Below are positions 5,063-64,000 of a stretch of 64,000 nt of DNA, one piece after another (the stretch's first letter is position 1; every line of letters begins with the position of its first letter). Made by a program: the position numbers and the translations under genes. The notes beneath the pieces were generated by a model, which saw only the letters and a program-made list of their open reading frames with translations, had not been told where the DNA came from and did no database searches. Source of the DNA: an uncultured Thermoleophilaceae bacterium (GTDB lineage Bacteria; Actinomycetota; Thermoleophilia; Solirubrobacterales; Thermoleophilaceae). The stretch is from positions 23,879-87,878 of the forward strand of contig CAVSGC010000008.1 of the NCBI GenBank assembly GCA_963727395.1, in the 5' to 3' direction.

Positions 5063-5748
5063 CGTCGGGCCTCAGGACGTAGCCGGAGCCGCGCACGGTG
5101 TGCAGCAGGCGCTCCTCGCCGCCGGCCTCGAGCTTGCGGCGCAGGTTCGACACGAACACGTCGACCGTGTTGGTCTCGGCGAACGGGTGGTAGTCCCAGA
5201 CCTCCTCGAGCAGGCGGTCGCGCGAGACCACCAGGCGCTCGTTGCGCATCAGGTACTCGAGCAGCTCGAACTCGCGCGCCGTCAGCTCGACTCGCGCGTC
5301 GCCGCGCAAGACCTCGCGGCCGCCGGGGTTCAGCCGCAGGTCGCCGCAGACCAGGAAGGCGCTGCCGCGCGGGGGGCGGCGGCGCAGCAGGGCGCGCAGG
5401 CGCGCGAGCAGCTCGGCGCGCTCGAAGGGCTTGACCAGGTAGTCGTCGGCGCCGGAGTCGAGGCCGGTCACGCGGTCTTCGACCCCGTCGCGGGCGGTCA
5501 GCATCAGGATCGGACGTCGCCCTGCTCGCGCAGGCGCTCGGCCACCTCGACGCCGTCGAGCTTGGGCAGCCCGAGGTCGAGCACCACGGCGTCGGGCTCG
5601 AACAGGCCGGCTCCCTCGAGGGCGACCTCGCCGTCGCGCGCCAGGCGCACCTCGTAGCCCTCCATGCCGAGCGAGCGGCGCAGCACGTCCGCGATGTCGG
5701 CGTCGTCCTCGACCACGAGGACGCGGGGAGTCGTTCCATGGACGCCAT
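5059..5748 (-). pseudogene. OmpR-family response regulator; frame disrupted as given
   Basis: Receiver domain: PRVLVVEDDADIADVLRRSLGMEGYEVRLARDGEVAL...DAVVLDLGLPKLDG (ORF 5504-5944 frame). LTARDGVEDRVTGLDSGADDYLVKPF plus winged helix REFELLEYLMRNERLVVSRDRLLEEVWDY...VDVFVSNLRRKLE...VRGSGYVL (ORF 4968-5504 frame). The ATG at 5748 and TGA at 5059 share a third frame whose translation is meaningless. Confidence 0.8.
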
Positions 5749-5795
5749 GGTAGGGAGGGGCGCGGCGTCCGGTGTCGAACGAACTGAACTCAGTC

Positions 5796-41146: not shown

Positions 41147-41959
41147 TCAGGGTGCTTCGCCGTCCGGCTGAGCCGCCGCCGCGACCTTGTCCAGCGAGCG
41201 CCGCAGCAGGCGCGACACGTGCATCTGAGACACGCCCACCTGCGTGGCGATCTGCGACTGGGTGAGGTCCTCCACGAACCGCAGCCGCAGGATCTCCCGC
41301 TCGCGAGGCGGGAGCGCGGCCACAGCCGGGGCCACCGCGGGCCTCCACTCGGCCAGCTCGAAGCCGGAGTCCTCGGCGCCGATGCGCTGGCCCAGCGTGT
41401 TGTCGTCATCTTCCCCGGCGCCGGGCTGGGGCGAGTCCAGGCTCATCGGGCTGTAGGCGCCGGCGGCGTCCATCGCCTCGAGCACGTCCTCCAGGCCCAG
41501 CCCGGTGCGCTTTGCCACGTCGCGGGGGGTGGGGGAGCGGCCCAGCTCGGTGGCGAGCACCTCCACCGCGTTGTTCACGTCCATCACCCGCTCCTGCAGG
41601 TAGCGCGGCACGTGGATGCCCCAGCCCTTGTCGCGGAAGTGGCGCTTGAGCTCGCCCACGATGGTGGGAACCGCATAGCGGGCGAACGCCCCCACGCCGG
41701 GCTCGAACCGGTCGATCGCCTTGATCAACCCGAGGCTGGCCACCTGCTCGAGGTCGTCCACCGACTCGCCGGAGTGCCGGTAGCGCCCCGCGAGCCGCCG
41801 GGCGAGCGGCAGGTAGTGCTCGATGAGCAGGCGACGCGCTTCGGGATCGCCTCGCCGCAGGCCCTCGAGCGCTGCCTTTTCGTCGAACTCCGGGATGGCG
41901 CCGTTCAGTGCGGGAGCGGCGCCTGCGGAGGACCTCCCAGCGTCCGCGCGTGCCATCAC
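41147..41959 (-). CDS. RNA polymerase sigma factor, group 3 (SigB/SigF-like)
   Basis: Intact 270-aa ORF. LIEHYLPLARRLAGRYRHSGESVDDLEQVASLGLIKAIDRFEPGVGAFARYAVPTIVGELKRHFRDKGWGIHVPRYLQE (regions 2-3)...LPPREREILRLRFVEDLTQSQIATQVGVSQMHVSRLLRRSL (region 4). Confidence 0.85.
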   Translation of the reverse strand: MMARADAGRSSAGAAPALNGAIPEFDEKAALEGLRRGDPEARRLLIEHYLPLARRLAGRYRHSGESVDDLEQVASLGLIKAIDRFEPGVGAFARYAVPTIVGELKRHFRDKGWGIHVPRYLQERVMDVNNAVEVLATELGRSPTPRDVAKRTGLGLEDVLEAMDAAGAYSPMSLDSPQPGAGEDDDNTLGQRIGAEDSGFELAEWRPAVAPAVAALPPREREILRLRFVEDLTQSQIATQVGVSQMHVSRLLRRSLDKVAAAAQPDGEAP

Positions 41960-41995: not shown

Positions 41996-43900
41996 TCAGC
42001 CGGTGGCGGGTGCGCCGTGGCGCGCTGTTGGGCGGCGATCGGGTGCGCCCGGTCCCCTCGGTGGGCGTTCACCGGCTCCCGGAGCTGCCAGGGCGAGACG
42101 GTGCAGGCCCCAGGCCAGCAGGGCCAGCAGGGCCAGCGCGATGGCCACCACCACGCCGTAGGCGAGCACCGTCAGACCCGCGGCGGTGGACTTCTGCTCC
42201 CGCTGCAGGATCTCGTGGTCGGCCACGAACTCGCGGCTGATGCTCGCCGTGGCGGGCACCTCCTTGGCCGGGATCGCCCTGTCCTCCGGGAGGAAGATCG
42301 GCACGCCGGTGAGCGAGTTGCCGTTGTGCAGGCGCAGGATCGCCTTCCAGTTGCCGTGCACCGGGATCGGCTCCGTGGTCCGGTAGCGGCCGGGCCCCGT
42401 GCGCCGGAGGCGGTCCACCACCAGGCCGTCGCCCTGCCACGCGGTCACGGTGAGCCACTCGGCGTTGTCGGCGGCCGAGGGCGGATCCAGGCGCACGTCG
42501 GCGGACACCGTGCGGCTGGGGCCCGACTCCACATCCTGCAGCTGGATGTCGGCCCTCACGCCGGAGTCGGCCGGTTTGTAGAGCGCATACCCGACGATCA
42601 ACGCCAGCGCGGCGGACGCCGCGGCCGCCGCGGTGCGCAGCGATGTCGTGCGCGGCATGGCGTCGGAGGACAGCCGGGCGCCGATCCACGCGCCCACGAG
42701 GGCCCCGGCCACGGCGGCGGCGAAGCCGAGGATCGCGGCCTCGGGCAGCAGCTCGGAGGGCCACGGGATCGGCATCCAGATGTGCGACCAGCCCCACTCG
42801 GCCGCCAGCCCCACCGTGCCGATCAACACGCCGCACACGGCGCCGAAGGCCAGCGGGCGCGCCGCCGGCGCCATCCGCAGCGCCACCAGCTCCACCAGCG
42901 CCGCCTCCACGATGTACAGCGGAAGGTGAGGGGTGGTCTCGCCCAGCACGGGACCCACCAGCAGCGCCAGGCCGCCGCGCACCGCGATGAAGAAGGCCAC
43001 CGCACCCAGTGCGGCGCCGCGGCCGAGCCAGATGCGCGTGGCCACCAGGGCCACGGCGGCGGCCACCATGATCATGATCGGCTGGAACACGAAGCGGAAC
43101 TGGGGCACGCCGAAGTCGAACTCGGCCTGGAACGTGGACAGGCCGATCAGCAGGCCGCCCACGAGCGCCGTGCGGCGCACGACGAAGGTCCAGTGCCGCT
43201 CGGCTCCGTCCCTGGTCTCGGGCGAGCGCAGCGCCTCCACCAGCAGCACGGCTATGCCCACCAGCGTCATCGACGCTCCGCCAATCAGCATCAGGTGGGT
43301 GGGGCCCCAGAGGGTCACGTCCTGGCCGAAGAGGCGGTGCCAGACGTCGTCGAGCGGGAATCCGATCAGCGAGAACGCGCCACAGGCGCAGATCAGCACG
43401 CCGCCGAGGGGCGCGTGCCAGTCGCGAGTGATCCTCACCGCGCTCGCGCTGGGCTTCTCGCGCGGCAGCACCATCGCCACGAACCCGGCGGCGAAGATGC
43501 CGAACAGGCCGATCAGGATGAAGTAGTGGGCCGGGTTGGCCAGGGGTCCCTCGTCGCGGCCCACGTCGATGTGCAGGGAGATGTCCCAGTACATGCCGAA
43601 GACCGCGATCAGCAGCGAGCTGGCGGCGAGGGCCGACGGCACGGCGGCCCATCCGGGGAGGCCCGACACGCGCGTGCCGAAGCTGCCCAGGCTCTCGAGC
43701 AGGCCGATCTTGCCGCTGCGGTGGCCGATGCCGAGCACCAGCAGCAGCGTGGTGACCACCGCGGCGCCGCCGGTGGCGATCACGATCTCGCCGAGCGCGG
43801 CGCCGCCCGCGGGCTCCTCGCCCTGCGCGAAGGCGCTGGGCGGCAGGACGGTCAGTGCGGCGAAGGTGCTGAGCGCGAGGGTGGTTGCGCGGGCGGTCAT
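41996..43900 (-). CDS. large polytopic membrane protein of unknown function (signal peptide, about 12 TM, extracytoplasmic beta-rich domain, C-terminal TM)
   Basis: Internal ATG of ORF 41996-44278. MTARATTLALSTFAALTVLPPSAFAQ...MYWDISLHIDVGRDEGPLANPAHYFILIGLFG...DDVWHRLFGQDVTLWGPTHLMLIGG...; C-domain DIQLQDVESGPSRTVSADVRLDPPSAADNAEWLTVTAWQGDGLVVDRLRRTGPGRYRTTEPIPVHGNWKAILRLHNG. Intact, no family recognised. Confidence 0.75.
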   Translation of the reverse strand: MTARATTLALSTFAALTVLPPSAFAQGEEPAGGAALGEIVIATGGAAVVTTLLLVLGIGHRSGKIGLLESLGSFGTRVSGLPGWAAVPSALAASSLLIAVFGMYWDISLHIDVGRDEGPLANPAHYFILIGLFGIFAAGFVAMVLPREKPSASAVRITRDWHAPLGGVLICACGAFSLIGFPLDDVWHRLFGQDVTLWGPTHLMLIGGASMTLVGIAVLLVEALRSPETRDGAERHWTFVVRRTALVGGLLIGLSTFQAEFDFGVPQFRFVFQPIMIMVAAAVALVATRIWLGRGAALGAVAFFIAVRGGLALLVGPVLGETTPHLPLYIVEAALVELVALRMAPAARPLAFGAVCGVLIGTVGLAAEWGWSHIWMPIPWPSELLPEAAILGFAAAVAGALVGAWIGARLSSDAMPRTTSLRTAAAAASAALALIVGYALYKPADSGVRADIQLQDVESGPSRTVSADVRLDPPSAADNAEWLTVTAWQGDGLVVDRLRRTGPGRYRTTEPIPVHGNWKAILRLHNGNSLTGVPIFLPEDRAIPAKEVPATASISREFVADHEILQREQKSTAAGLTVLAYGVVVAIALALLALLAWGLHRLALAAPGAGERPPRGPGAPDRRPTARHGAPATG

Positions 43901-43993
43901 CGAGTCTCTTGACTCCTCCAGTCGGTGACAGCGGCCTATGTTACAGCGATTGATGTCAAGGTTGGTGTGCGTTCGGTCACGTAACCTTGGCCC

Positions 43994-44257
43994 ATGGCGG
44001 CGAGGGATCCGCACCGCAGAGCCGGCGAGGCGCTCTCGAACTCGCCGCAGCTGCGCCTGGAGGTGGCGCGCATGCGCGTGGACTTCAGGCGCCTTGGCAA
44101 GAACACCGACCACCTGAGCGACCAGCAGATCCTCGACGGCATCCAGGAGGCCGGCAAGAAGCTCCCCAAGGTGAGCGACCGCCCGGGCGGCGCGAGCTTC
44201 AGAGAGGCGCGGGACGCGTTCGTGCGGGGGCTGCCGGATTTGCCTGAGGGTTCCTAG
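43994..44257 (+). CDS. small hypothetical protein
   Basis: 87-aa ORF, GC3-rich. ...LRLEVARMRVDFRRLGKNTDHLSDQQILDGIQEAGKKLPKVSDRPGGASFREARDAFVRGLPDLPEGS. An internal ATG at 44072 has a good SD (ggagg, 8 nt) and may be the true start. Confidence 0.55.
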   Translation: MAARDPHRRAGEALSNSPQLRLEVARMRVDFRRLGKNTDHLSDQQILDGIQEAGKKLPKVSDRPGGASFREARDAFVRGLPDLPEGS

Positions 44258-44349
44258 AAAAAAGCGCCAGGTACCCATAATCGGTGTTATCGAGCGCTCT
44301 GAATGAGTTTCGGGGGACAGCAGGCGCCGCGCATATATCGTCAGGCCTC

Positions 44350-47313: not shown

Positions 47314-47676
47314 CTACTCCTCGGTCGCCTTCACCACGGCGGCCGCGAACACGGCCTGAAGCGGCAGCCGCGCCCAGAGCAGCCACCGTGGGATCGGCGC
47401 AAGCCCCTTTATCTCGCCGGGGTGCAGTGCCATGTGCACATTGGCCGGGAAGATCGCCACCAGGAGGGCCAGCAGCCACCAGCGGGCCGGCCTCTCGAGC
47501 CCCGGCGTGAGCAGCAGCAGGCCGCCGGCCACCTCCGCCGCGCCGCTGGCCTGCACCATCTCGCGGTGCGCCGGAATGTACGCCGGCATGATCGCCTCGT
47601 AGCGCTTGGGCACCAGGAAGTGCAGCGTGCCGGCGAGCACCCAGATCACGCCGTGGATCTTCCGCTGGGTCGTCAT
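47314..47676 (-). CDS. DoxX-like small membrane protein
   Basis: Intact 120-aa ORF with four hydrophobic segments. IHGVIWVLAGTLHFLVP...AEVAGGLLLLTPG...WWLLALLVAIFPANVHMAL. Confidence 0.65.
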   Translation of the reverse strand: MTTQRKIHGVIWVLAGTLHFLVPKRYEAIMPAYIPAHREMVQASGAAEVAGGLLLLTPGLERPARWWLLALLVAIFPANVHMALHPGEIKGLAPIPRWLLWARLPLQAVFAAAVVKATEE

Positions 47677-48671
47677 CCGTCCGCAAACGGCTGGATCGGG
47701 ATCCCGTGGCCGGTCTCTCGCATGCCCAGCTCGTACGCGGCCCCGCCCTCGAGATCGAGCTGGATGGGTTCGCTGCCGGGGCGCGAGACGGCCAGGCGCA
47801 TATCGGCCACCGAGCAGTTCACGGTGTTGTGCTCGGAGCCGTCGGGGTCAGCGTAGACCCACCCCACAATGTCGTCGCGGTCGGCCTCCACCGTGCCCTG
47901 GACGGTAAGGCCGCGGCCGGGCAGCGTGAAGTCACACCTCGAGGGGCTCTCCGAAACGTCCGTGCGCCGGATGCGCCCCGGGCCACCCAACCGCAGGCGC
48001 TCGCCACCGACGCAGAGCACGCCGTTCGCGATCCATGGCGTGGTGTAGGAGCCCACCTTGACGCGGCCCAGGCCCGCGTCGAGCCACGCATCCTCGTCCT
48101 GGGCGAACCCGGCGCCGTGCATCCAGATCCACCGCTCGGCGTGCTCGGCGCCCCAGTTGTGCCCCACCATGCCGCGCCACCCGTCGAGCTCGACGGAGTG
48201 CCCGTCCACCTCCGCTCGCCCGCTGAAGCGCGCCGCAGGGTGCGGGCTGAGCAGCTTGGTACGCGGTATGGGCGCGCGGTACATCCACCGTCGCGGCAGG
48301 TGGTGCAGCGCCTCCTCCCCCGCGTCGAAGGACAGATCCCAGGACGCGCTGCGCCCCTCCCCCTCCGCGCGGCCGGTGACCGTTCCGGGCGCGAACACGC
48401 TGTCGCTCACGTGGATGTACTCACTCTCGCGAGCGCCCACGTCAATGGTGGTCTGCTTCACGGCCCACGGCGCGCCCTCCTCGGAGCGGTCGAACAGCGT
48501 GCACCACAGCGACCCCGTGGGCTCCTCCCCCGGCCGCTTGTGCACCGTGTAGCGGATCCACAGCGCCACGCCCTCCGAGGGGTGCGACGCCTTCAGATAG
48601 AAGCTCTCGTAGTGACCCGCCGGCGGGTCCACGTGAGGGAAGCGGGCGCTCGAGCGCCGGGGGACGGCCAT
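47673..48671 (-). CDS. conserved hypothetical protein (weak tocopherol-cyclase-like motif)
   Basis: Intact 332-aa ORF whose stop overlaps the DoxX start. HYESFYLKASHPSEGVALWIRYTVHK...GMVGHNWGAEHAERWIWMHG...VGWVYADPDGSEHNTVNCSV. The fold assignment is tentative. Confidence 0.7.
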   Translation of the reverse strand: MAVPRRSSARFPHVDPPAGHYESFYLKASHPSEGVALWIRYTVHKRPGEEPTGSLWCTLFDRSEEGAPWAVKQTTIDVGARESEYIHVSDSVFAPGTVTGRAEGEGRSASWDLSFDAGEEALHHLPRRWMYRAPIPRTKLLSPHPAARFSGRAEVDGHSVELDGWRGMVGHNWGAEHAERWIWMHGAGFAQDEDAWLDAGLGRVKVGSYTTPWIANGVLCVGGERLRLGGPGRIRRTDVSESPSRCDFTLPGRGLTVQGTVEADRDDIVGWVYADPDGSEHNTVNCSVADMRLAVSRPGSEPIQLDLEGGAAYELGMRETGHGIPIQPFADG

Positions 48672-52058: not shown

Positions 52059-53523
52059 ATGTCCGGAGACCGACTCACCGCGCTCGACGCGTCCTTCCTG
52101 CACCTGGAGGACGCCTCGGCCCACATGCACGTGGCCTCCGTGATGATCTTCGAGGGCGACCCGCCGCCCTACGACGAGCTGCTCGAGTCGATCGAGCGCC
52201 GCCTGCACCTGGTGCCCCGCTACCGCCAGAAGCTGGCCTTCGTGCCGCTCGGCCAGGGCCGCCCGCGGTGGGTGGACGACCCCCATCTGAACCTCGCGCT
52301 ACCACGTGCGCGCCACCGCCCTGCCCTCGCCCGGCACCGAGGACCAGCTGCGCGCCCTGGCCGGCCGCGTGTTCGCCCAGCAGCTGGACCGCGACAAGCC
52401 GCTGTGGGAGATCTGGCTCGTCGAGGGACTCGAGGGCGGGCGCTTCGCGCATGCTGTCCAAGACCCACCACTCGCTGGTGGACGGCATCTCCGGCGTGGA
52501 CATCTTCAGCGTGCTGTTCGACACCTCGCCCGAGCCCGCTGCGCCCACCGACCCGGGCCGCCGCTGGCTGCCGCGGCCCGCTCCCGTCCGGCGCCCAGTT
52601 GCTGGGCGAGGCGCTGGTCGAGCGCGCCACGATGCCCGGCCGAGGCCGTGCGCGCAGCGTGCGCGCGCTGTTCCGCGCGCCCGCGGCAGATCGCTGGCGC
52701 CGCTGCGTGCGGCGCCGCGGCCGGCGTGGGAGCGATGGCCTGGGCGGGCCTGAGCCCCGCGCCCACCACGCCCCTACAACCAGCCCGATCGGCCCCCACC
52801 GGCGCTTCACGTGGGTGCGCACCGAGCCTCGGCGGACATGAAGGCGATCAAGAACGAGCTGGGCGGCACGGTCAACGACGTCGTGCTGGCCGCGGTGGCG
52901 GGTGCTCTGGGACGCCACCTGCGCCGCCGCGGCCAGCGCACCGACGGCCTGGAGCTGAAGGCGATGGTGCCCGTGAGCGTGCGCCGCGACGACCAGCGCG
53001 GCGACCTGGGCAACCAGGTGGCGGCGATCATGGCCCCGCTGCCCGTGTGGTGCCAGGAGCCCGTGGCGCGGCTGGACATCGTGCCGCGAGCAGATGACGG
53101 ACCTCAAGGAGGGCGGCCAGGCGCGTCGGGCGCGCAGGTGCTGACCGAGCCTCACGCGGCTTCGCGCCGCCCACGGTGATGGGCCAGGCCTCCCGGCTGA
53201 TGAGCCGCCAGCGGTTCTTCAACCTGGTGGTGACCAACGTGCCCGGGCCCCAGTTCCCGCTGTACCTGATGGGCCGCCGCGCGCTGGACCCGTTCCCGAT
53301 GGTCCCGCTGGCCAAGAACCAGGGCCTGGGCATGGCGATCATGAGCTACAACGGCCAGATGAACTTCGGCCTGGTGGGCGACTACGACGTGATGTACGAC
53401 ATCGACGACCTGGCCGCGCGACCTCTACGACTCGCTCGGCCGAATTGGCGGATGCGGCCGGGCGTGGAGCTGACCACCCAGCCGCCGCCGGTGGTGCGCG
53501 ACGAGCTGGCCCACGTAGTCTGA
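52059..53523 (+). pseudogene. wax ester synthase/diacylglycerol acyltransferase (WS/DGAT); frame disrupted
   Basis: MSGDRLTALDASFLHLEDASAHMHVASVMIFEGDPPPYDELLESIERRLHLVPRYRQKLAFVPLGQGRPRWVDDPHLNL (ORF 51747). LAGRVFAQQLDRDKPLWEIWLVEGLEGGRFA (ORF 52306). MLSKTHHSLVDGISGVDIFSVLFD (HHxxxDG, ORF 51932). IKNELGGTVNDVVLAAVAGAL...LGNQVAAIMAPLPV (ORF 52811). FNLVVTNVPGPQFPLYLMGRRALDPFPMVPLAKNQGLGMAIMSYNGQMNFGLVGD (ORF 53176). Confidence 0.8.
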
Positions 53524-54725: not shown

Positions 54726-56514
54726 ATGAGCACGCGTCCGGAGCCGCTGCGGGTGGCCCTCGCGCAGATCAACCCCACGGTGGGCGACATCGAGGGCAAC
54801 GCCGCGAAGATCGCGCGAGCATCGCGCCGCGCGCGTGACGAGGGCGCCGCGCTGGTGGTCTTCCCCGAGCTCGCGCCTCACGGGCTACCCGCCGGAGGAC
54901 CTGCTGCTGAAGACGCACTTCCTCGACGCCGCCGGCGCCGCGCTCGAGGAGCTGGCCGGCGGGGTCCAGCGGCATCGTCGCGCTGGTGGGCTTCCCCGAG
55001 CGCGCGGACGACGTGTACAACTCCGCCGCCGTGCTCGCCGACGGCCGGGTGGCCGCCGTCTACCGCAAGTGCACCTGCCCAACTACGGCGTCGTTCGACG
55101 AGCACCGCTACTTCCAGGCCGGCACCGAGCCCGCGCTGATCGAGCTGAACGGCATCACGATCGGCCTCACGGTCTGCGAGGACATCTGGGAGCCCGGGCC
55201 GCCCGCCAGCTCGCGAGGCGCTGGCGGGCGCGCAGGTGATCGTCAACCTCTCCGCGTCGCCCTACCACGCGGGCAAGGGGGCCGAGCGCGAGCGGATGCT
55301 GGTGCAGCGCGCGCGGGACAACCTCGCCGCGGTGCTGTTCTGCAACACGGTCGGCGGCCAGGACGAGCTGGTCTTCGACGGCCACAGCGTCGCGATCGAC
55401 CAGGACGGCGAGGTGCTCGCGCGCTCGCCGCAGTTCGAGGAGGCGCTCACGCTGTGCACGGTGGACCCGGGCGCCGTGGCCGCCGCCCGCCTGCGCGACA
55501 CCCGCCACCGCGCCGCGGTGCGCGCGAGCGCGAGCGCAAGGCGGTGCCGGTGCTCGCGTCGCTGGCTCGTCGACGCCGCGACCCGGCGCGAGGTGGGCGG
55601 CCCGGTGGCGGAGCTGCTGGAGCCCGAGGAGGAGGTGTACGCCGCGCTGCGCACCGGCCTGCGCGACTACGTCGACAAGAACGGCTTCGACCGCGTGGTG
55701 ATCGGCTCTCGGGCGGGATCGACTCGGCGCTGGTGGCGCTGGTGGCCGTGGACGCCCTGGGGGCCGACCGCGTGGTCTGCGTGTCCATGCCCTCGCCCTA
55801 CTCCTCCGAGGGCACCCGTGCCGACGCCCGCGCGATCGCCGCCAACCTCGGCACCGAGTTCCTCGAGCTGGCCATCGAGGACGCGATGGCGCGCCTACGA
55901 GCGCCTGCTCGCGGAGGCGTTCGCCGGGCACGCGAGCCGGACATCGCCGAGGAGAACCTCCAGGCGCGCATCCGGGGCAACGCTGGTGATGGCGCTGTCG
56001 AACAAGTTCGGCTGGCTGGTGCTCACCACCGGCAACAAGTCCGAGCTGTCGGTGGGCTACGCGACGCTCTACGGCGACATGGCGGGCGGCTTCGCGGTGC
56101 TCAAGGACGTGTTCAAGGGATGGGTCTACCGCCTGGTGCGGTGGCGCAACGAGCCAGGCCGCACGCGAGCTCGTGCCGGCATCGGTGCTCGACCGCCCGC
56201 CATCGGCCGAGCTGCGCCACGAGCAGCGCGACGACGAGTCGCTCCCGCCCTACGACGTGCTCGACGCGATCCTCGCCGGCTACGTGGAGCAGGACCTCGA
56301 CGCCGCGGAGCTCGTGCGCCAGGGGCTGCCCGCGGAGGAGGTCGAGCGCGTGATCCGGATGGTCGACCGCGCCGAGTACAAGCGCCGTCAGGCCCCGCCG
56401 GGGATCCGCATCTCCACCAAGGCGTTCGGGCGCGACCGGCGGCTGCCGATCACGAACCGCTACGTAGCCGGCGTTCTGTCGGCGCGGGCCGCACGGCCAT
56501 CGTCACCCGCGTGA
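54726..56514 (+). pseudogene. nadE: glutamine-dependent NAD+ synthetase; frame disrupted, 3' end approximate
   Basis: [30 protein letters not shown]...[25 protein letters not shown] (ORF 54835), [18 protein letters not shown]...LNGITIGLTVCEDIWEPGP (ORF 54986), IVNLSASPYHAGKGAERERMLVQRARDNLAAVLFCNTVGGQDELVFDGHSVAID (ORF 55236), SGGIDSALVALVAVDALG (PP-loop), VMALSNKFGWLVLTTGNKSELSVGYATLYGDMAGGFAVLKDVFK, PSAELRHEQRDDESLPPYDVLDAIL...RRQAPPGIRISTKAFGRDRRLPITNRY (ORF 56173). Confidence 0.85.
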
Positions 56515-57991: not shown

Positions 57992-59627
57992 CCCGCCGGC
58001 AGCAGCTTGCCGGGGTTCATGATCGCCCGGCGGGTCGAGGCGCTCCTTGGCGGCGCGCAGCACCTCCAGCCCCAGCGCCCCCACCTCGGCCTCCATCCAG
58101 GGCGCGTGGTCGCGCCCACGGCGTGGTGGTGGGTGATCGTGCCGCCCGTGGCCACGATCGCGTCGCAGCGCCGCCCGCTTGGCGGCGCGCCACTGCTCCA
58201 GCTCGGCGCCCCGCTCCTGGCGGGCGATGAAGGTGAAGTACAGGGAGGCGCCCGAGGGTACAGGTGCGACACGTGGCACATCACCGCGGGTGGCGTGCCG
58301 CGCGCCGCCAGGCCTCGCGCAGCGCCTGCGCCGACGCCTCGAGTAGAGCGCCGTGCAGCCCGCTCCAGGTGGTGGCGGTCTCCAGCGTCTCCACCATCAC
58401 GCCGCGATCCAGCAGCTCGTCGCGCAGGTAGGGCGCCGCGAAGCGCCCGCGCAGCCAGGCGCGCCCCGGGCCGCTCGCCCAGCGACAGCGCCTCCCGCGG
58501 CGCGCAGGATCGACGCGCAGCGCCCGCGCCGGCGGCCACATCCTCGGCCGGCCCCTCGAAGCCGGTGAACACAAGGCAGCCGCCCTCGTGGCCGCGCAGG
58601 CCGCAGGTAGGCGCGCCCGGCCCGCTCCGCCGCGCGCTGCCGGTGGAGCCCAGCGCCATCGTGAGGCGGTCTCCTCGCTCGTCGGAGAGGCGGGCCACGT
58701 CCGGGGCGGCGCCGCGCCTGCTCCAGCGCGCGCAGCGCCTCGCACGCCCTCCTCGAACGAGCGGAACGACCAGGCCTCGTAGTGGCGCTGAGGCGGGCGC
58801 GGGGCGCACCCGCACGTGGCCGCGGTGATCACGCCCAGGGCGCCCTCGGAGCCCACGATCAGCTCGCGCAGCGAGGGTCCCGGCCGCGGTGGCCGGCACG
58901 TCGAGGGTGCTCGAGCGGGCCGGCCGGGCGACTCGCACCGCAGCGACCTGCACCAGCTCGTCGATGCGCCCGTAGCCGGTGGAGGCCTGCCCGGCCGAGC
59001 GGGTGGCCACCCAGCCGCCCACGGTGGAGAACTCAAAGGACTGCGGGAAGTGCCCAGGGTGAGCCCCTGCTGCGCCCAGCCGGTGCTCCAGCGCGGGCCC
59101 AGGATGCCCGGCTCGAGCGGGCGGTGAGCGACGTGCGGTCCACGCCCGAGCACCCTGTCCATGCGGCGCAGGTCCAGCGACACGGCGGCCGCGTGGGAGC
59201 CCCGCAGCGGCCTCCACCCCGCCCACCACGCTGGTGCCGCCGCCGAATGGAATCACCGCCACCCCGGCGCTCGCACATGCGCTCAGCACGGCCGCCACCT
59301 CGTCCCCACCGCGCGGGACGTACCACGGCGTCCGGGGCGCCCGAGCGCGTCGCCGGCGCGCAGCCGCACGAGGTCGGGATAGCTGCGCCCGGCCGCGTGC
59401 GCCACGCGCTCCTGCGCGTCGTCGAGCACGTTCTCCTGCCCCACCACGGCCTCGAGCGCGCGGCGTGCCGCGCGCCGGCAGCGCGGGTCGGCCAGGCGTC
59501 ACGTCCGGCCAGCTCCACCCGCTCGCCCCGCTCGTCGCCCGAGGTCCAGCTCTGCGCGCAGCAGGTGCGCGGCCGGCTCGGGGAGCGTCATGGCGGCGGC
59601 GTCCTCTCCCCACCCCCACCAGCGCAC
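57988..59627 (-). pseudogene. FAD-linked oxidase, alkyl-DHAP synthase (AgpS)-like; frame disrupted many times
   Basis: GTG 59627 VRWWGWGEDAAAMTLPEP (W-x-GWG N-terminus). VPRGGDEVAAVLSACASAGVAVIPFGGGTSVVGGVE, HFPQSFEFSTVGGWVATRSAGQASTGYGRIDELV, CHVSHLYP.GASLYFTF pieces, ITHHHAVG and LDPPGIMNPGKLLPAG-stop (ORFs 57988-59952, 58281-59183, 57827-58279). Confidence 0.75.
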
Positions 59628-59629
59628 GC

Positions 59630-60082
59630 CTAGTCCTCCCAGCCGTCGGCCAGCTCCTGCAGACCGTCCAGAGCGCCGTCGAACTGCCGCTTGGTGCGCG
59701 GCGTGACCTGGAACCCGCCCAACCGCGAGAAGCCGCGCAGCTGGATCCGGCGCTCGAGGCGCACCACGGTGGAGTCCTCGCCCGGCCGGCTCCAGTCCGA
59801 AGCTCGGTGACCGAGGAGGCCATGATCCGCTCGAAGGGGGACTCCTCCACCTCGTGGCGCCAGCGCAGGCAGCCGCGGCTGTTCGGACTCCTCGAGCGTG
59901 TAGTCGGCGCGCATGCGTGCGGCCATTGGCGCTCGTGAGCACCGCGGTCCACGCATCCGCGAGGCCTCCTCCACGCGCGCCACGTTGGGCCACCAGCTGG
60001 GCCAGCGCCGGGGATCGGACACCAGCGACCAGAGTCGCTCCGGGGCGGCGGGCACGGTGCGCGAGCGAATGATCGTGGGCAC
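59630..60082 (-). pseudogene. SRPBCC (START/polyketide cyclase-like) protein; internal compensating frame switches
   Basis: VPTIIRSRTVPAAPERLWSLVSDPRRWPSWWPNVARVEEAS and the C-terminus EDSTVVRLERRIQLRGFSRLGGFQVTPRTKRQFDGALDGLQELADGWED are in the ORF 59630-60082 frame. The middle pieces ADAWTAVLTSANGR and LRWRHEVEESPFERIMASSVTEL are in the other two frames. Confidence 0.6.
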
Positions 60083-60085
60083 CGG

Positions 60086-60631
60086 CTACTCCGAGTCGTA
60101 GGAGATCAGGCTGTGAACGTGGCGGCGGCGCCAGCTGCTCGCGGCCGCCGAGGAAAGCCAGCTCGATCACGAAGGCGCAGCCGGCCACCTCTGCGCCGGC
60201 CTGCTCCACGAGCGTCGCACAGCGCTCCCGCCGTGCCGCCGGTGGCCAGCAGGTCGTCGTGCACGAGCACGCGGGCCCCGCCGCTCAGCGCGTCGCTGTG
60301 CATCTCGAGGGCGTCCACGCCGTACTCCAGCTGGTACTCCACCGAGTCCGTTTCCCGGGGCAGCTTGCCCGGCTTGCGCGCCACGATGAAGCCGGCCCCA
60401 CGTGCGCGGCGATCGCCCCGCCCAGCACGAAGCCACGCGCCTCGGCCGACACCACGTAGTCGGCCCCAACGCCCCTCGCGTAGCCGGCCAGCGCCTCGGT
60501 GGCCGCGCGCAGCGCAGCGGCGTCGAGGAACAGCGGGGTGATGTCTCTGAACACGATCCCCGGCTTGGGAAAGTCAGGGATGTCGCGCGACGCAGCGCGC
60601 GCAGGATCCGATCGGACGGGCCGGCCGTCAC
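60086..60631 (-). pseudogene. apt: adenine phosphoribosyltransferase; frame disrupted
   Basis: GTG 60631 overlaps the MerR stop (GTGA). [63 protein letters not shown] (ORF 60285). [53 protein letters not shown] (ORF 60106). [16 protein letters not shown] and ...[13 protein letters not shown] (60086-60088) are in other frames. Confidence 0.8.
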
Positions 60632-61374
60632 TTGGCGAGCTTGCGGAGATCGCGGATGAGCAGCAGGTGCTTGAGGTAGGAGGCGGTGGTGGCCAGGTCC
60701 TCGAGGGCCTGCATGGCCTCCTTGCGCCGCTCGGGGTTCCGCGACCGCAGCGCCGGGGCGAGGATCTGCTCGAGCAGGGCCGCCTCGCGATCGGCCGAGG
60801 TGCGGAACACGCGCAGGTTGCGCCCGCCGACGCCGTAGCGCTTGAGCTCGGTGACCGCGCGCACGATCTCGCGTTCGGTGTCGTCGTACACGGTCTCGCC
60901 GTCCTGCTTCTCGCCGCGGATCACGCCGTACTCCTCGAGCTCCTTGACCAGCGCCGCGTCAGCCCCGGTCTCGTCGAGCACCTCGTCGAGCCCGTACAGT
61001 GACCCGCCCGAGCGCATGGCCACGGTGGCCCGGCGGCCACCCGAGCGCGGGTCCGAGCCCGAGCCGTCGCCCGGAGAGATCTCCTCCTGCTCGGCGCGGC
61101 CCGATGCCAGCTCCTGGCGGATCACCCGCAGGGGCAGAAACTCGTCGCGCTGCAGGCGCAGGATCGTGCGCAGGCGCACCACGTCGGACGCGTTGAACAG
61201 GCGATATCCACCCGCGGTCCGCCTGGGGGCCATCAGCTTCTGGTCCTCCAGATAGCGGATCTTCGAGATCGAGATGTCGGGGAACTCACGCTCCAGCTGC
61301 TTGCAGACGGCCCCGATCGTCAGTGCCTTGCCGCTACCGGCGGGAGGCGCCTCGGCTCCGTCCTGGACGCCCAT
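60628..61374 (-). CDS. MerR-family transcriptional regulator (FtsR / Rv1828-like)
   Basis: Intact 248-aa ORF. LTIGAVCKQLEREFPDISISKIRYLEDQKLMAPRRTAGGYRLFNASDVVRLRTILRLQRDEFLPLRVIRQEL, plus C-terminal domain EYGVIRG...ELKRYGVGGRNLRVFRTSADREAALLEQIL. It sits directly downstream of an FHA (GarA/OdhI-like) gene, as in Corynebacterium and Mycobacterium. Confidence 0.8.
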   Translation of the reverse strand: MGVQDGAEAPPAGSGKALTIGAVCKQLEREFPDISISKIRYLEDQKLMAPRRTAGGYRLFNASDVVRLRTILRLQRDEFLPLRVIRQELASGRAEQEEISPGDGSGSDPRSGGRRATVAMRSGGSLYGLDEVLDETGADAALVKELEEYGVIRGEKQDGETVYDDTEREIVRAVTELKRYGVGGRNLRVFRTSADREAALLEQILAPALRSRNPERRKEAMQALEDLATTASYLKHLLLIRDLRKLAK

Positions 61375-61384
61375 GACCGTCTCC

Positions 61385-61846
61385 TCACCGCTCCAGGTAG
61401 GTGAGCTTGTACTTGCCCACCTGCAGCTCGTCGCCGTTCTGGAGACGATGGGACTCGATACGCCTGCGATTCACGTAGGTGCCGTTCAGCGAGCCGAGGT
61501 CGTCGATGTAGAGGCCGTCGCGGCGGCGCACCAGAAGCGCGTGGTTGCGCGAAACGGTCACATCGTCGAGAAACACCTCGGCCTCCGGGCTGCGCCCGAT
61601 CGTCATCCGTTCGCCGGCGACCGTGAACAGCTCGCCCGCGCGGCCGCCGCCGGAGCGGATCGCAAGCGTGGCGCCCTCGGCGGCCACCTGCTCCATGTCG
61701 ACGGGCTTCAGCTCGCCGGTCTCGTCAAGCTGGTAGGCGGCTGTGGTGTCGCCCTCCTGCTTTTCGGCGTCGCTCAGGAAGGCGCCGCACTTCTGACAGT
61801 AGTTGGCGCCCTCCGCGTTGACGAAGCCGCATTCGGGGCAGTGCAT
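61385..61846 (-). CDS. FHA-domain protein (GarA/OdhI-like) with N-terminal zinc ribbon
   Basis: Intact 153-aa ORF. MHCPECGFVNAEGANYCQKCG (CxxC-x11-CxxC), linker with DTTAAYQLDETGE, and FHA core TIGRSPEAEVFLDDVTVSRNHALLVRRRDGLYIDDLGSLNGTYVNRRRI. Confidence 0.85.
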   Translation of the reverse strand: MHCPECGFVNAEGANYCQKCGAFLSDAEKQEGDTTAAYQLDETGELKPVDMEQVAAEGATLAIRSGGGRAGELFTVAGERMTIGRSPEAEVFLDDVTVSRNHALLVRRRDGLYIDDLGSLNGTYVNRRRIESHRLQNGDELQVGKYKLTYLER

Positions 61847-61870
61847 CTGACTACGCGCCCGTCCGCGCCC

Positions 61871-62131
61871 TCAGTCGTCCGAGCTGCTGCTGGGCATGGA
61901 CTTGCCGGACAGGATGTCGGTGAGCGCCTGGACGTCCGCGCCGCTGATGGCGGACTCGCCGTCCTCGTGCTTCTTGCGCAGCCGGTTGACCAGCTCGGCA
62001 CGCAGGATGTCGATCTTGCCGTGCAGGATGCGCCGCTGGTAGGACACCTCCTGCTCCTCATCCATGAGCTGCTGGATCATTTCCTTCAGCTCGTGGTCTG
62101 AGAGCGCCCCAAGGTCGGGGAACGTTTCCAT
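61871..62131 (-). CDS. small coiled-coil protein with an RsiG-like c-di-GMP-binding-type motif (function hypothetical)
   Basis: Intact 86-aa ORF. LSDHELKEMIQQLMDEEQEVSYQRRILHGKIDILRAELVNRLRK. Residues E26-x3-S30-x2-R33-x3-H37-x3-D41 fit the RsiG signature E-x3-S-x2-R-x3-Q-x3-D except Q to H. Confidence 0.6.
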   Translation of the reverse strand: METFPDLGALSDHELKEMIQQLMDEEQEVSYQRRILHGKIDILRAELVNRLRKKHEDGESAISGADVQALTDILSGKSMPSSSSDD

Positions 62132-62244
62132 TCGCGCGTCCTTTCAGTTCAAGGAACGGCGAGTATAGACCGAGGTGTCAAGTTGAGCTTGAGGGTGGGG
62201 GCGCGGTGCTTGACCTTTGCGCCCGATTTGCCGATCACCTGAGG

Positions 62245-64000
62245 GTGAGGATCCCGCTCGGACTGAGGCTGTTCTGGGGCGTCGTTGGCGTCGCACTGGC
62301 CGCCTTCGTGGTGCGCAGCGTGTTCTGGCCGGGATCGCTGAGCAACCTGTTCGACGTCGGCGTGTCCACGTTCCTGCTGGCGGCCGGCGCCTCCTCGTGC
62401 CTGCTGCGGGCCGCCCTCGTGAAGGAGGACCGCGCGCCCTGGCTGGTGGCGGGGCTCGGCATGGCCGTCTGGACGGTGGGCGACACCTACTGGTCGCTGT
62501 TTTTGGCCCACGACCCCGACGCGCCCTTCCCCTCGCTTGCGGACCCGTTGTATCTGCTCCAGTACCCCGCGTTCTACGCCGCGCTGCTGTTGCTGGTGCG
62601 CTCCCGCGACCGCCTGGTGTCCCGCGGCCTGTGGCTCGACGGCGCGATAGGTGCCCTGGCGATGGGCGCGGTCGTGGCGGCGCTCGCCATCGACCCGATC
62701 ATCGCCGGCACCACCGGCACCGGGCTGGCGGTGGCCACCAGCCTCGCCTACCCGATCTTCGACCTCGTGCTGCTGTGCCTGGTGATCGGCGTCTTCGGGG
62801 TGTCGGGGTGGCGGCCGGGTCGCGCCTGGGCCCTGCTGGGCGCCGGCTTCTCGGCCACTGCGGTGGCCGACGTCGTCTACTTCCTGCAGCTGAACAAGGG
62901 CACCTACACCGAGGGCACCGTGCTCGACATCTTCTGGCCGCTCGGCTCGCTGCTGATCGGCCTGGCCGCCTGGCAGTCCGCCGCCGCCGAGCGTGACATC
63001 TCGCTTGAGAGCTCCCGTGTGGTGGCGGTCCCGTTCTTCAGTGGCGTCGTGGCCCTGGGCCTGCTCATGTACGACCACTTCGACCGGCTCGGCGGCGTGG
63101 CCGTGGGACTCACCGGCGCCACCCTCGCCCTCGTGACGCTGAGGATGGCCATGGCTTTCCGCGACCGTGACAGGATGCTCTCGCAGAGCCGCCAAGAGGC
63201 CATGGTGGACGCGCTCACGGGCCTGCGTAACCGCCGCTGCCTGATGGCCGACCTGGAGCGCGACCTGCCCTCGGCGACGCTTGCGCGCCCGCTGGCCCTC
63301 CTGTTGTTCGACCTCGACGGCTTCAAGCACTACAACGACAGCTTCGGACACACGGCCGGCGACGCTCTGCTCGCGCGGCTCGGACAGCGGCTGGCGGCGG
63401 CGGTGGCAGACTGCGGCGCGGCCTACAGGCTGGGCGGCGACGAGTTCTGCGCCCTGGTGGCCCCTGGAGCCAGAATCGACGCGATCTCCGCCGTGTGCGT
63501 GGCGGCCCTGGCTGAGCGCGGCGAGGGGTTCAGCGTGACCACGTCCTTCGGCGTGGCGCTGGTCCCCGAGGAGGCCGACTCCCCCATGGCCGCCCTCAAG
63601 CTGGCCGACAGGCGCATGTATGCCCAGAAGGGCGGTGAGCGCTCGGCGGCCGGACGCCAGTCGCGCGACGTGCTGCTGCGCACCCTGTCCGAGCGCCAGC
63701 CCGAGCTGCACGCCCACCTGCGCGGCGTGGCCGAGCTGGCACTCGAGGTGGGGCGCGAGATGGCGATGCCCCCGGAGGCCCTCGACGAGCTGGCGCGTGC
63801 GGCGGAGCTGCACGACGTCGGGAAGGTGGCCATCCCCGACGAGATCCTCCAGAAGCGCGGCTCACTGGACGAGGCCGAGTGGGCCTTCGTGCGGCGCCAC
63901 ACGATCATCGGGGAGCGCATCCTGCTGGCCGCGCCCGCCCTGCGCCCAGTGGCCGGCCTGGTGCGGTCGAGCCACGAGCGCTGGGACGGCGCCGGCTACC
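62245..64000 (+). CDS. membrane-bound diguanylate cyclase (GGDEF) fused to an HD-GYP phosphodiesterase domain; 3' end beyond the window
   Basis: This open frame is not in the ORF track because it has no stop before the window end. GTG 62245 (alternative GTG 62206). About 8 TM segments (RLFWGVVGVALAAFVV..., WLVAGLGMAVWTVGDTYW..., LYLLQYPAFYAALLLLV...). GGDEF domain DALTGLRNRRCLMADL...LLFDLDGFKHYNDSFGHTAGDALL...AYRLGGDEFCAL...SFGVAL...LKLADRRMYAQK. HD-GYP domain AAELHDVGKVAIPDEIL...ERILLAAP...SSHERWDGAGY. Confidence 0.85.
   Translation, partial: MRIPLGLRLFWGVVGVALAAFVVRSVFWPGSLSNLFDVGVSTFLLAAGASSCLLRAALVKEDRAPWLVAGLGMAVWTVGDTYWSLFLAHDPDAPFPSLADPLYLLQYPAFYAALLLLVRSRDRLVSRGLWLDGAIGALAMGAVVAALAIDPIIAGTTGTGLAVATSLAYPIFDLVLLCLVIGVFGVSGWRPGRAWALLGAGFSATAVADVVYFLQLNKGTYTEGTVLDIFWPLGSLLIGLAAWQSAAAERDISLESSRVVAVPFFSGVVALGLLMYDHFDRLGGVAVGLTGATLALVTLRMAMAFRDRDRMLSQSRQEAMVDALTGLRNRRCLMADLERDLPSATLARPLALLLFDLDGFKHYNDSFGHTAGDALLARLGQRLAAAVADCGAAYRLGGDEFCALVAPGARIDAISAVCVAALAERGEGFSVTTSFGVALVPEEADSPMAALKLADRRMYAQKGGERSAAGRQSRDVLLRTLSERQPELHAHLRGVAELALEVGREMAMPPEALDELARAAELHDVGKVAIPDEILQKRGSLDEAEWAFVRRHTIIGERILLAAPALRPVAGLVRSSHERWDGAGY

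What the first reader, a model, noticed from the sequence alone, without database searches (positions are those of the whole stretch)
61871..64000. RsiG-like single-motif coiled-coil protein divergent from a membrane GGDEF/HD-GYP enzyme
The 86-aa protein at 61871-62131 contains EEQEVSYQRRILHGKIDILRAEL. This is E-x3-S-x2-R-x3-H-x3-D, one residue (Q to H) away from the E-x3-S-x2-R-x3-Q-x3-D signature by which the Streptomyces anti-sigma RsiG clamps c-di-GMP. Short single-motif homologues that act as dimers have been described in non-filamentous Actinobacteria (from memory). About 110 bp away, and divergently transcribed, is an intact polytopic membrane protein with a canonical GGDEF active site (RLGGDEF, no obvious RxxD I-site at the usual spacing) fused to an HD-GYP domain (HDVGK, HERWDGAGY). 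That protein could both make and degrade c-di-GMP. Together they could form a local c-di-GMP sensor and effector pair. No WhiG/FliA-type sigma is in the window, and the sigma factor at 41147-41959 looks SigB/F-like.
Basis: partly seen in the sequence, partly recalled or inferred. Interest (0 to 1): 0.65.

Follow-up and report, generated by a model that had tools for sequence, protein, structure and literature searches.

The report
Single-motif RsiG anti-sigma factor gene
The small gene is an ordinary member of an already described family, the short dimer-forming c-di-GMP-dependent anti-sigma factor RsiG of the class Thermoleophilia. Its histidine variant has already been shown to bind c-di-GMP, and the only fresh point is that it always heads an operon with two cell-division and metabolism regulators.

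Summary
The 86-aa ORF at 61871-62131 (minus strand) is real and is an RsiG-family protein (Pfam PF22802, E 3.9e-20; S. venezuelae RsiG structure, E 1.9e-11). Its E-x3-S-x2-R-x3-H-x3-D motif is not a near-miss. The histidine form is the published variant, and C. woesei RsiG, from the same class, carries it and binds c-di-GMP and WhiG (PMC8325347). The window comes from a Thermoleophilaceae-like organism. All five motif residues are invariant in 136 distinct orthologues. A WhiG sigma factor with the c-di-GMP contact residues is encoded in 11 genomes that also carry this operon, including the window's closest relative.

The proposed pairing with the divergent membrane GGDEF/HD-GYP gene is weak. 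That gene is intact, but a homologue lies nearby in only 16 of about 140 related genomes. There it sits 2.4 kb away, with proS and a phosphatidyltransferase gene in between in the one locus read in full. The adjacency in the window is a local rearrangement.

The invariant partners are the two downstream genes, a zinc-ribbon/FHA GarA-like protein and the MerR regulator FtsR. A conserved FtsR-box-like inverted repeat sits upstream of rsiG. Verdict: a new member of a known kind, with a modestly interesting operon context that I did not find reported.

The parts
61871..62131 (-). rsiG: 86-aa single-motif RsiG-family protein, first gene of the operon
   Evidence: ORF. Pfam PF22802 at E 3.9e-20. PDB sequence matches to 6pfj (E 1.9e-11) and to 7lq2/7lq3/7lq4 (E about 3e-8). 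AlphaFold2 model has a helix at 12-56 and a short helix at 64-75, mean pLDDT 81.
62009..62056 (-). c-di-GMP-binding signature E26-x3-S30-x2-R33-x3-H37-x3-D41
   Evidence: It is the only match in the six-frame translation of the window. All five residues are invariant in 136 of 136 distinct orthologues. The histidine variant is documented and was tested in C. woesei RsiG.
62177..62194 (-). Inverted repeat CCTCAAG-CTCAA-CTTGAC upstream of rsiG, a putative FtsR operator
   Evidence: It is the only perfect match in the window. The dyad scores at least 10/12 in 137 of 142 distinct rsiG upstream regions, against 2 of 741 control windows. In 1.73 Mb of related DNA, 198 of 208 strong hits lie within 200 bp upstream of rsiG. 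Scored by hand on the quoted sequences, the published FtsR operators fit at the same spacing (PMC6683498). Binding by FtsR is inferred.
62162..62167 (-). TATACT, a likely -10 hexamer of the rsiG promoter
   Evidence: A conserved TATACT/TATAAT/TATGCT hexamer follows the dyad in aligned upstream regions. The consensus sigma-70 scan did not call a promoter here, so this is inferred.
62139..62145 (-). GAAAGGA ribosome-binding site, 7 nt before the ATG
   Evidence: Read directly from the sequence. GAAAGGA or GGAGAGGA is conserved at this position in relatives.
61385..61846 (-). Zinc-ribbon + FHA protein (GarA/OdhI-like FHA domain), second gene, 24 bp after rsiG
   Evidence: Pfam FHA at E 2.4e-21 and Zn_Ribbon_1. 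The best solved-structure matches are GarA and OdhI (E about 5e-21). It scores below the NCBIfam OdhI equivalog cutoff (107 against 200). It follows rsiG in every related locus long enough to show it.
60628..61374 (-). ftsR: MerR-family regulator FtsR, third gene, 10 bp after the FHA gene
   Evidence: NCBIfam TF_FtsR_Actino scores 218.7 bits against a cutoff of 150. It is conserved after the FHA gene in every related locus long enough to show it.
62245..64000 (+). Divergent polytopic membrane GGDEF + HD-GYP protein, truncated by the window end; a neighbour, not shown to belong to the system
   Evidence: Translation. Pfam GGDEF at E 4.4e-30 and HD_5 at E 2.3e-18. About 8-9 hydrophobic segments lie in residues 1-303, and the GGDEF, HDVGK and HERWDGAGY motifs are present. 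The full-length orthologue in L007 (694 aa) matches solved HD-GYP phosphodiesterases 5z7c, 4mcw and 4r8z.

Best explanation
The gene encodes the Thermoleophilia orthologue of RsiG, the c-di-GMP-armed anti-sigma factor of the sigma-28-type factor WhiG. The proposed mechanism is inferred by homology and was not tested here. [quoted passage not shown] Each copy contributes one E26/S30/R33/H37/D41 motif, and together they clamp an intercalated c-di-GMP dimer. [quoted passage not shown] WhiG is therefore held inactive while c-di-GMP is high and released when it falls.

The gene is transcribed as the first cistron of an rsiG, zinc-ribbon/FHA, ftsR operon. Its promoter carries an FtsR-box-like inverted repeat, so the amount of anti-sigma factor is probably set together with, and perhaps by, the cell-division regulator FtsR. 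The neighbouring GGDEF/HD-GYP enzyme is one of presumably several c-di-GMP enzymes feeding the cellular pool. Its position next to rsiG in this genome is a recent accident of rearrangement.
For: Family membership is shown by Pfam RsiG-like at 71.7 bits against a cutoff of 27. phmmer against solved structures gives S. venezuelae RsiG at 1.9e-11 and R. radiotolerans RsiG at 2.6e-8.

The motif residues are invariant in 136 of 136 distinct orthologues. The histidine form was shown experimentally in C. woesei RsiG, from the same class, to bind c-di-GMP (Kd 25 uM) and to bind it about 15-fold tighter with WhiG. All five published single-motif RsiGs self-interact and co-purify with WhiG (PMC8325347).

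The organism is Thermoleophilia. The closest relatives of the R. radiotolerans RsiG fragment retrieved from genomes all lie in this same operon, so no better paralogue surfaced among the sampled matches.

Residues that make polar contacts with WhiG in the Rubrobacter complex (D39, R72, R77) align with D6, K39 and R44. These are conserved in 134/136, 128 K plus 8 R, and 136/136 orthologues. The predicted architecture of one long helix, a glycine linker and a short C-terminal helix fits single-motif RsiG.

The partner exists. whiG was found in 80 Thermoleophilia genomes, 11 of which are the same assemblies that carry the operon. One of these is SMAG_U10274, whose RsiG is 92% identical to the window's. 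That WhiG passes NCBIfam's WhiG equivalog (358.6 against 343). It carries PLVKYVAGR, which holds the K/G/R c-di-GMP contacts, as do 70 of the 80.

Operon: the intergenic gaps are 24 and 10 bp in the window, and the gene order holds in every related locus long enough to show it. Dyad.
Against: No WhiG gene lies in the 64-kb window, and the rest of this genome could not be read. No binding or dimerisation was tested here.

Direct orthology to the published C. woesei, T. album and R. radiotolerans genes could not be shown locus by locus, because those sequences were not retrievable. It rests on the paper's statement that these genomes hold one RsiG homologue each.

The fold search of the monomer model found nothing significant. 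No WhiG-type promoter was found in the window. The FtsR-operator reading rests only on sequence resemblance and conservation.
Confidence: 0.8

Rival explanations
1. RsiG and the divergent GGDEF/HD-GYP membrane enzyme form a dedicated local pair, in which the enzyme makes or removes the c-di-GMP that this RsiG senses, possibly through direct contact.
For: The two genes are 113 bp apart and divergent in the window. The enzyme has an intact GGDEF site without an I-site, plus an HD-GYP domain. A homologue lies within 2.5 kb of rsiG in 16 Thermoleophilaceae-type genomes. There is precedent for local action: the S. venezuelae GGDEF-EAL enzyme RmdB binds WhiG and antagonises RsiG (PMC13232838). In the window the dyad sits only 51-68 bp from the enzyme's start codon, so the two genes could share regulation.
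Against: The link is absent from most relatives (about 124 of 140), including the closest one, L001. Where the enzyme is present, it starts 2.4 kb upstream of rsiG, and in L007 it is divergent from proS, with proS and a phosphatidyltransferase gene in between. The window's adjacency comes from loss or relocation of those two genes. No interaction data exist.
Confidence: 0.12
2. The small protein's main or additional target is encoded in its own operon. As a c-di-GMP-loaded dimer it binds the zinc-ribbon/FHA protein or FtsR, and so couples c-di-GMP to cell division and 2-oxoglutarate metabolism.
For: The gene order rsiG, FHA, ftsR holds in every related locus long enough to show it (about 140 distinct genomes), with gaps of tens of bases. 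The link extends to a Rubrobacter-like, glutamine-type RsiG, which is followed with a 4-bp overlap by a zinc-ribbon ORF. One genome has an in-frame RsiG-FHA fusion (L135). The signal controlling FtsR is unknown (PMC6683498). The protein is 73-92% identical across families, which is unusually conserved for an anti-sigma factor.
Against: Orthologous-type proteins bind WhiG in a c-di-GMP-dependent way. WhiG with the contact residues co-occurs. The WhiG-contact residues are conserved. Operon membership can reflect co-regulation only. The single fusion comes from a long-read metagenome bin and may be a lost stop codon. I found no paper that mentions RsiG together with FtsR, GarA or an FHA domain.
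Confidence: 0.12
3. The ORF is a chance coiled-coil-like reading frame, or a decayed gene in a frameshift-rich assembly.
For: The window has several split genes: apt in three frames, and NAD synthase and WS/DGAT fragments.
Against: The ORF is full length against orthologues and 73-92% identical to those in the 80 best-matching genomes. GC3 is 0.93, as in the neighbouring genes. It has a conserved ribosome-binding site and promoter elements. The Pfam E-value is 3.9e-20.
Confidence: 0.01

Closest known systems
RsiG of Conexibacter woesei (RsiGCw, Cwoe_3492), single-motif, histidine variant (Schumacher et al. 2021, PMC8325347)
   Same: It is from the same class (Thermoleophilia). It is small, has one E-x3-S-x2-R-x3-H-x3-D motif, and the histidine is at the same place. 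RsiGCw binds c-di-GMP (25 uM; 1.7 uM with WhiG), self-interacts and co-purifies with WhiG.
   Different: The RsiGCw sequence and its locus could not be retrieved here, so identity and gene context are not compared directly. The window protein comes from an uncultured Thermoleophilaceae-like lineage.
RsiG of Rubrobacter radiotolerans (RsiGRr; PDB 7LQ2, 7LQ3, 7LQ4)
   Same: It aligns over residues 5-50 (E 2.6e-8). It has the same single-helix homodimer design with glycine-linked extensions. D39, R66, R72, D74 and R77 correspond to D6, R33, K39, D41 and R44.
   Different: RsiGRr has glutamine where this protein has histidine. It is 118 aa with a longer N-terminus. It shares about 46% identity in the aligned core. 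The C-terminal extension does not align.
RsiG of Streptomyces venezuelae (twin-motif monomer; PDB 6PFJ, 6PFV)
   Same: It is homologous: helix alpha-1 gives 34.8 bits and helix alpha-5 gives 12.5 bits against the window protein. It has the same ligand-binding signature and the same partner sigma family.
   Different: It is 176 aa as crystallised, with two motifs on one chain and a shielding loop. It acts as a monomer and controls sporulation.
odhI/garA-ftsR gene cluster of Actinobacteria (Kraxner et al. 2019, PMC6683498)
   Same: An FHA protein with a GarA-like FHA domain is directly followed by FtsR. An inverted repeat resembles the FtsR operators of the C. glutamicum and M. tuberculosis ftsZ promoters.
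   Different: Here the FHA protein has an N-terminal zinc ribbon and falls below the OdhI equivalog cutoff. rsiG precedes it. ftsR is followed by apt and an SRPBCC gene, not by the nuclease and second MerR regulator that follow it in the published cluster. The dyad lies in the operon's own promoter.
RmdB of S. venezuelae, a membrane GGDEF-EAL enzyme acting locally on RsiG-WhiG (PMC13232838)
   Same: It is a c-di-GMP enzyme with a GGDEF domain that is tied functionally to the RsiG-WhiG switch.
   Different: The window enzyme has HD-GYP instead of EAL. There is no evidence of contact, and the adjacency is not conserved.

Membership tests
RsiG (c-di-GMP-dependent anti-sigma factor of WhiG), single-motif type | Sequence homology to characterised RsiG proteins | tested here: met
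   Pfam PF22802 scores 71.7 bits against a cutoff of 27. phmmer gives 6pfj at E 1.9e-11 and 7lq2 at E 2.6e-8.
RsiG (c-di-GMP-dependent anti-sigma factor of WhiG), single-motif type | E(X)3S(X)2R(X)3[Q/H](X)3D signature, present once | tested here: met
   E26, S30, R33, H37 and D41 are present, with a single occurrence. They are invariant in 136/136 orthologues. The motif definition with Q/H comes from PMC8325347.
RsiG (c-di-GMP-dependent anti-sigma factor of WhiG), single-motif type | One long coiled-coil helix with glycine-linked N- and C-terminal extensions; no second motif helix | tested here: met
   The AlphaFold2 model has helices at 12-56 and 64-75, with G8, G58 and G64 at the joints. 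This is a prediction only, and the fold search was uninformative.
RsiG (c-di-GMP-dependent anti-sigma factor of WhiG), single-motif type | Homodimerisation | not testable with these tools
   Only monomer prediction was available. The published single-motif RsiGs self-interact in BACTH.
RsiG (c-di-GMP-dependent anti-sigma factor of WhiG), single-motif type | Specific binding of a c-di-GMP dimer | not testable with these tools
   It is inferred from the intact motif and from the measured binding of the histidine-type RsiGCw.
RsiG (c-di-GMP-dependent anti-sigma factor of WhiG), single-motif type | A cognate WhiG with the c-di-GMP contact residues (K, G, R of sigma-2 helix alpha-2) in the same genome | tested here: inconclusive
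   It is not in the window, and the rest of the genome is unavailable. It is met in relatives: 11 assemblies carry both genes, including the closest one. The WhiG equivalog is passed, and PLVKYVAGR is present in 70/80.
RsiG (c-di-GMP-dependent anti-sigma factor of WhiG), single-motif type | Taxonomic range: single-motif forms in Rubrobacteria and Thermoleophilia | tested here: met
   The named closest homologues and nearly all named related loci are Thermoleophilaceae or Solirubrobacterales; a few are Gaiellaceae or carry only broader labels.
Bifunctional GGDEF/HD-GYP c-di-GMP enzyme (the neighbour) | GG[DE]EF active site; RxxD I-site; HD and GYP motifs | tested here: met
   RLGGDEF, HDVGK and HERWDGAGY are present, and the I-site is absent (ADCG). 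The GYP motif is cut by the window end after GY and is complete in the orthologue in L007. Activity was not tested.
FtsR (MerR-type activator of ftsZ) | NCBIfam equivalog score; position directly after an FHA (odhI/garA-type) gene | tested here: met
   It scores 218.7 bits against a cutoff of 150. It lies 10 bp after the FHA gene.
OdhI/GarA (2-oxoglutarate dehydrogenase inhibitor) | Equivalog-level similarity including the N-terminal phospho-threonine segment | tested here: not met
   It scores 107 bits against a cutoff of 200. Only the FHA domain aligns with GarA/OdhI, and the N-terminus is a zinc ribbon. It is filed as GarA-like FHA protein only.

The most novel reading that the evidence does not exclude
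In the basal actinobacterial classes the c-di-GMP sensor RsiG is not a free-standing anti-sigma gene. It is the promoter-proximal cistron of an FtsR-controlled rsiG, FHA, ftsR operon. Its product may act on its operon partners, the GarA-like FHA protein or FtsR, as well as on WhiG. That would give c-di-GMP a direct line to cell division and central carbon/nitrogen metabolism, and would supply the missing input signal of FtsR.
Probability: 0.12. Interest if true: 0.65.

Novelty: new member of a known kind. Interest (0 to 1): 0.28.

Why it matters
As a gene call it matters little. It extends a family already characterised structurally and biochemically to one more uncultured soil lineage, and it corrects the impression that histidine is a deviation.

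Two by-products are more useful. First, single-motif RsiG is far more common than the five published cases. More than 500 genomes matched in a row-capped scan of one-genome-per-species assemblies, and 966 clusters at 50% identity matched the query in the representative library. Second, it always sits at the head of an operon with a GarA-like FHA protein and FtsR, behind an FtsR-box-like dyad. If that wiring is real, WhiG-controlled behaviour would be coupled in these bacteria to the regulator of ftsZ expression. That is directly testable with EMSA and two-hybrid assays.

Tried and rejected
1. A Foldseek search of the AlphaFold2 monomer against the PDB gave no hit below E = 3. A single long helix is not informative, so the sequence-level PDB matches were used instead.

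2. I tried to fetch the R. radiotolerans rsiG locus. A degenerate DNA pattern for its motif helix gave 0 hits in genome contigs. A protein search with the 46-aa fragment gave one candidate only. Direct comparison with the published loci was therefore not possible. A Rubrobacter-like homologue on an 874-bp contig gave partial context.

3. The window protein is not on record in the contig index, so the source contig could not be extended.

4. The first WhiG scan, with patterns from Rubrobacter and Streptomyces WhiG, returned almost no Thermoleophilia. This was a pattern artefact: Thermoleophilia have LAYSPLVKY and I[KR]FETFAI. A second scan with a Thermoleophilia WhiG found them.

5. WhiG-type promoters (TAAA-N15/16-GCCGATAA, up to 2 mismatches) gave none in the window and no enrichment in 1.8 Mb of related loci. 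GCCGATCA occurs upstream of the GGDEF gene, but TGAC stands where the TAAA -35 element should be, giving too many mismatches, so it was rejected.

6. The sigma-70 and terminator consensus scan of 60400-62400 found nothing.

7. Rfam and tRNA scans of the whole window found nothing, so there is no c-di-GMP riboswitch.

8. rsiG is not near whiG in any of the 162 loci fetched around whiG.
Full report
**Observation**

The pattern E-x3-S-x2-R-x3-[QH]-x3-D occurs once in the six-frame translation of the window, at 62009-62056 on the minus strand.

A long ORF starts 113 bp away on the plus strand at 62245 and runs off the window. It has about eight or nine hydrophobic segments in its first 300 residues. 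It carries RLGGDEF at residue 397 with no RxxD at the I-site position, then HDVGK and HERWDGAGY. Pfam assigns GGDEF (E 4.4e-30) and an HD-GYP-type HD domain (E 2.3e-18). The sigma factor at 41147-41959 (minus strand) is SigB/F/G type. The description is accurate.

**What the small protein is**

It matches Pfam RsiG-like (PF22802) at 71.7 bits against a cutoff of 27. Among solved structures it matches S. venezuelae RsiG (6PFJ, E 1.9e-11) and R. radiotolerans RsiG (7LQ2-4, E about 3e-8).

Schumacher et al. 2021 (PMC8325347) already describe this situation. RsiG homologues with a single motif occur in Rubrobacteria and Thermoleophilia and act as homodimers. The glutamine is often replaced by histidine. 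C. woesei RsiG, which has the histidine form, binds c-di-GMP with a Kd of 25 uM alone and 1.7 uM together with WhiG. The histidine is therefore the documented variant and not a deviation.

The named closest homologues of the window protein, and nearly all named related loci, are labelled Thermoleophilaceae or Solirubrobacterales. The best 80 loci are 73-92% identical to it, and a few more distant ones are labelled Gaiellaceae or carry only broader names. The organism therefore belongs to the class where this type is expected.

In 136 distinct orthologues E26, S30, R33, H37 and D41 are invariant, as is the whole stretch LHG(K/R)IDILRAELV. Residues that make polar contacts with WhiG in the Rubrobacter complex (D39, R72, R77) correspond to D6, K39 and R44, and these are conserved. 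An AlphaFold2 model gives one long helix (12-56), a glycine-containing linker and a short helix (64-75) at mean pLDDT 81. A fold search with that monomer was uninformative.

**The partner**

No WhiG is encoded in the window, and the source contig could not be extended. rsiG and whiG are unlinked in every genome examined.

A scan with a Thermoleophilia WhiG found whiG in 80 Thermoleophilia genomes. In the two long contigs whose gene calls were read, whiG sits after an integrase-family gene (xerC-like) and before rpsB, tsf and an amino-acid-kinase-family gene (pyrH-like); in the better-assembled one frr follows. Eleven of the 80 assemblies also carry the rsiG operon. One of them is SMAG_U10274, whose RsiG is 92% identical to the window's (L001 and L291). 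That WhiG passes NCBIfam's WhiG equivalog (358.6 against 343). Seventy of the 80 carry PLVKYVAGR, which contains the K, G and R that touch c-di-GMP in both solved complexes. The lineage therefore has the cognate sigma factor. For this particular genome that remains an inference.

**The real genomic context**

On the minus strand rsiG is followed after 24 bp by a 153-aa protein with an N-terminal zinc ribbon and an FHA domain. The FHA domain's best solved relatives are GarA and OdhI. After another 10 bp comes FtsR, the MerR-type regulator of ftsZ (218.7 bits against a cutoff of 150).

This order, rsiG then FHA then ftsR with gaps of tens of bases, holds in every one of the 157 related loci long enough to show it, which represent about 140 distinct genomes. 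A Rubrobacter-like, glutamine-type RsiG on a short contig is also followed, with a 4-bp overlap, by an ORF starting MSVCPECG, the same zinc-ribbon start. The link probably predates the split of the two classes.

An inverted repeat, consensus CTCAAS-N5-STTGA, lies upstream of rsiG and is followed by a TATACT or TATAAT hexamer. It scores at least 10/12 in 137 of 142 distinct upstream regions, against 2 of 741 control windows. Of 208 strong hits in 1.73 Mb of related DNA, 198 lie just upstream of rsiG. In the window it is at 62177-62194 and is the only perfect match.

The published FtsR operators in the ftsZ promoters of C. glutamicum (CTAAAG-TAAAG-GTTGAG) and M. tuberculosis fit this consensus at the same spacing. 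Scored by hand on the sequences quoted in PMC6683498, they match at 11/12 and 10/12. I read this as a probable FtsR operator and the operon as probably autoregulated. That is inference from sequence only. I found no paper that mentions RsiG together with FtsR, GarA or an FHA domain.

**The GGDEF/HD-GYP neighbour**

A homologue lies within 6 kb in only 16 distinct related loci, all labelled Thermoleophilaceae or Solirubrobacterales. In each of them its start is about 2.4 kb upstream of rsiG. In L007, the one such locus whose intervening genes I read, it is divergent from proS, and proS and a CDP-alcohol phosphatidyltransferase gene lie between it and rsiG. The closest relative, L001, has proS and the transferase gene but a different gene beyond them.

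Neither proS nor the transferase gene occurs anywhere in the window. Similarity to relatives resumes exactly at the dyad. It is not a conserved pairing.

A local role cannot be excluded, and the S. venezuelae enzyme RmdB shows that such arrangements exist. Here nothing beyond proximity supports it.

**Verdict**

This is a bona fide single-motif RsiG of the published histidine type. It most likely works as a homodimer that clamps a c-di-GMP dimer and sequesters WhiG (confidence about 0.8; steps inferred by homology). It is a new member of a known kind.

The operon with the FHA protein and FtsR, and the FtsR-box-like dyad, are the only elements that go beyond the literature I could search. They raise a modest and testable possibility: that anti-sigma dosage, or even RsiG's targets, are tied to the cell-division regulator.

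Noticed in passing
L134:5683-6243 (+): A 186-aa ORF consists of two complete single-motif RsiG units fused in frame, both of the histidine type. The halves are 46% identical. It sits in the normal slot before the zinc-ribbon/FHA gene. It looks like a young, independent twin-motif RsiG inside Thermoleophilia, mirroring the duplication proposed for the Streptomyces-type protein. About 17 of the 150 listed representatives (roughly 100-190 aa) also match in two or three stretches.
   Followed up: partly
L135 (RsiG-like ORF read through into the FHA gene, 248 aa): In one long-read metagenome bin the RsiG-like ORF continues in frame into the zinc-ribbon/FHA protein. This is either a genuine fusion, which would argue for a functional link, or a lost stop codon.
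   Followed up: no
window 59499-60554 (-): The adenine phosphoribosyltransferase gene downstream of ftsR is spread over three reading frames, whereas it is an intact 212-aa ORF in the closest relative (L001 7502-8140). Together with other gene fragments this suggests indel errors of a long-read assembly, or pseudogenes.
   Followed up: partly
window 56173-56514 (+) and 53176-53523 (+): These short ORFs match only the C-terminal parts of NAD synthase and of the WS/DGAT acyltransferase. Many stretches of the window lack clean long ORFs, which is further evidence of frequent frameshifts.
   Followed up: no
window 62132-62244, compared with L001 and L007 at about 3500-6000: proS and a CDP-alcohol phosphatidyltransferase gene precede rsiG in L001 and L007, the two relatives whose upstream regions were read. 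Both genes are missing from the whole window. Similarity to relatives resumes exactly at the conserved dyad.
   Followed up: partly
L239:6001-6792 and L240:6001-6867: In these two Thermoleophilia contigs whiG sits after an integrase-family (xerC-like) gene and before rpsB, tsf and an amino-acid-kinase-family (pyrH-like) gene; frr follows in L239. From my own knowledge this is the same neighbourhood as in Streptomyces, which suggests an old, stable location.
   Followed up: no
window 41996-44278 (-) and 47673-48671 (-): Two long ORFs with coding-like composition (760 aa and 332 aa) have no Pfam match at E <= 1e-5. The 760-aa ORF lies directly downstream of the SigB/F-like sigma factor gene (41147-41959) on the minus strand.
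   Followed up: no
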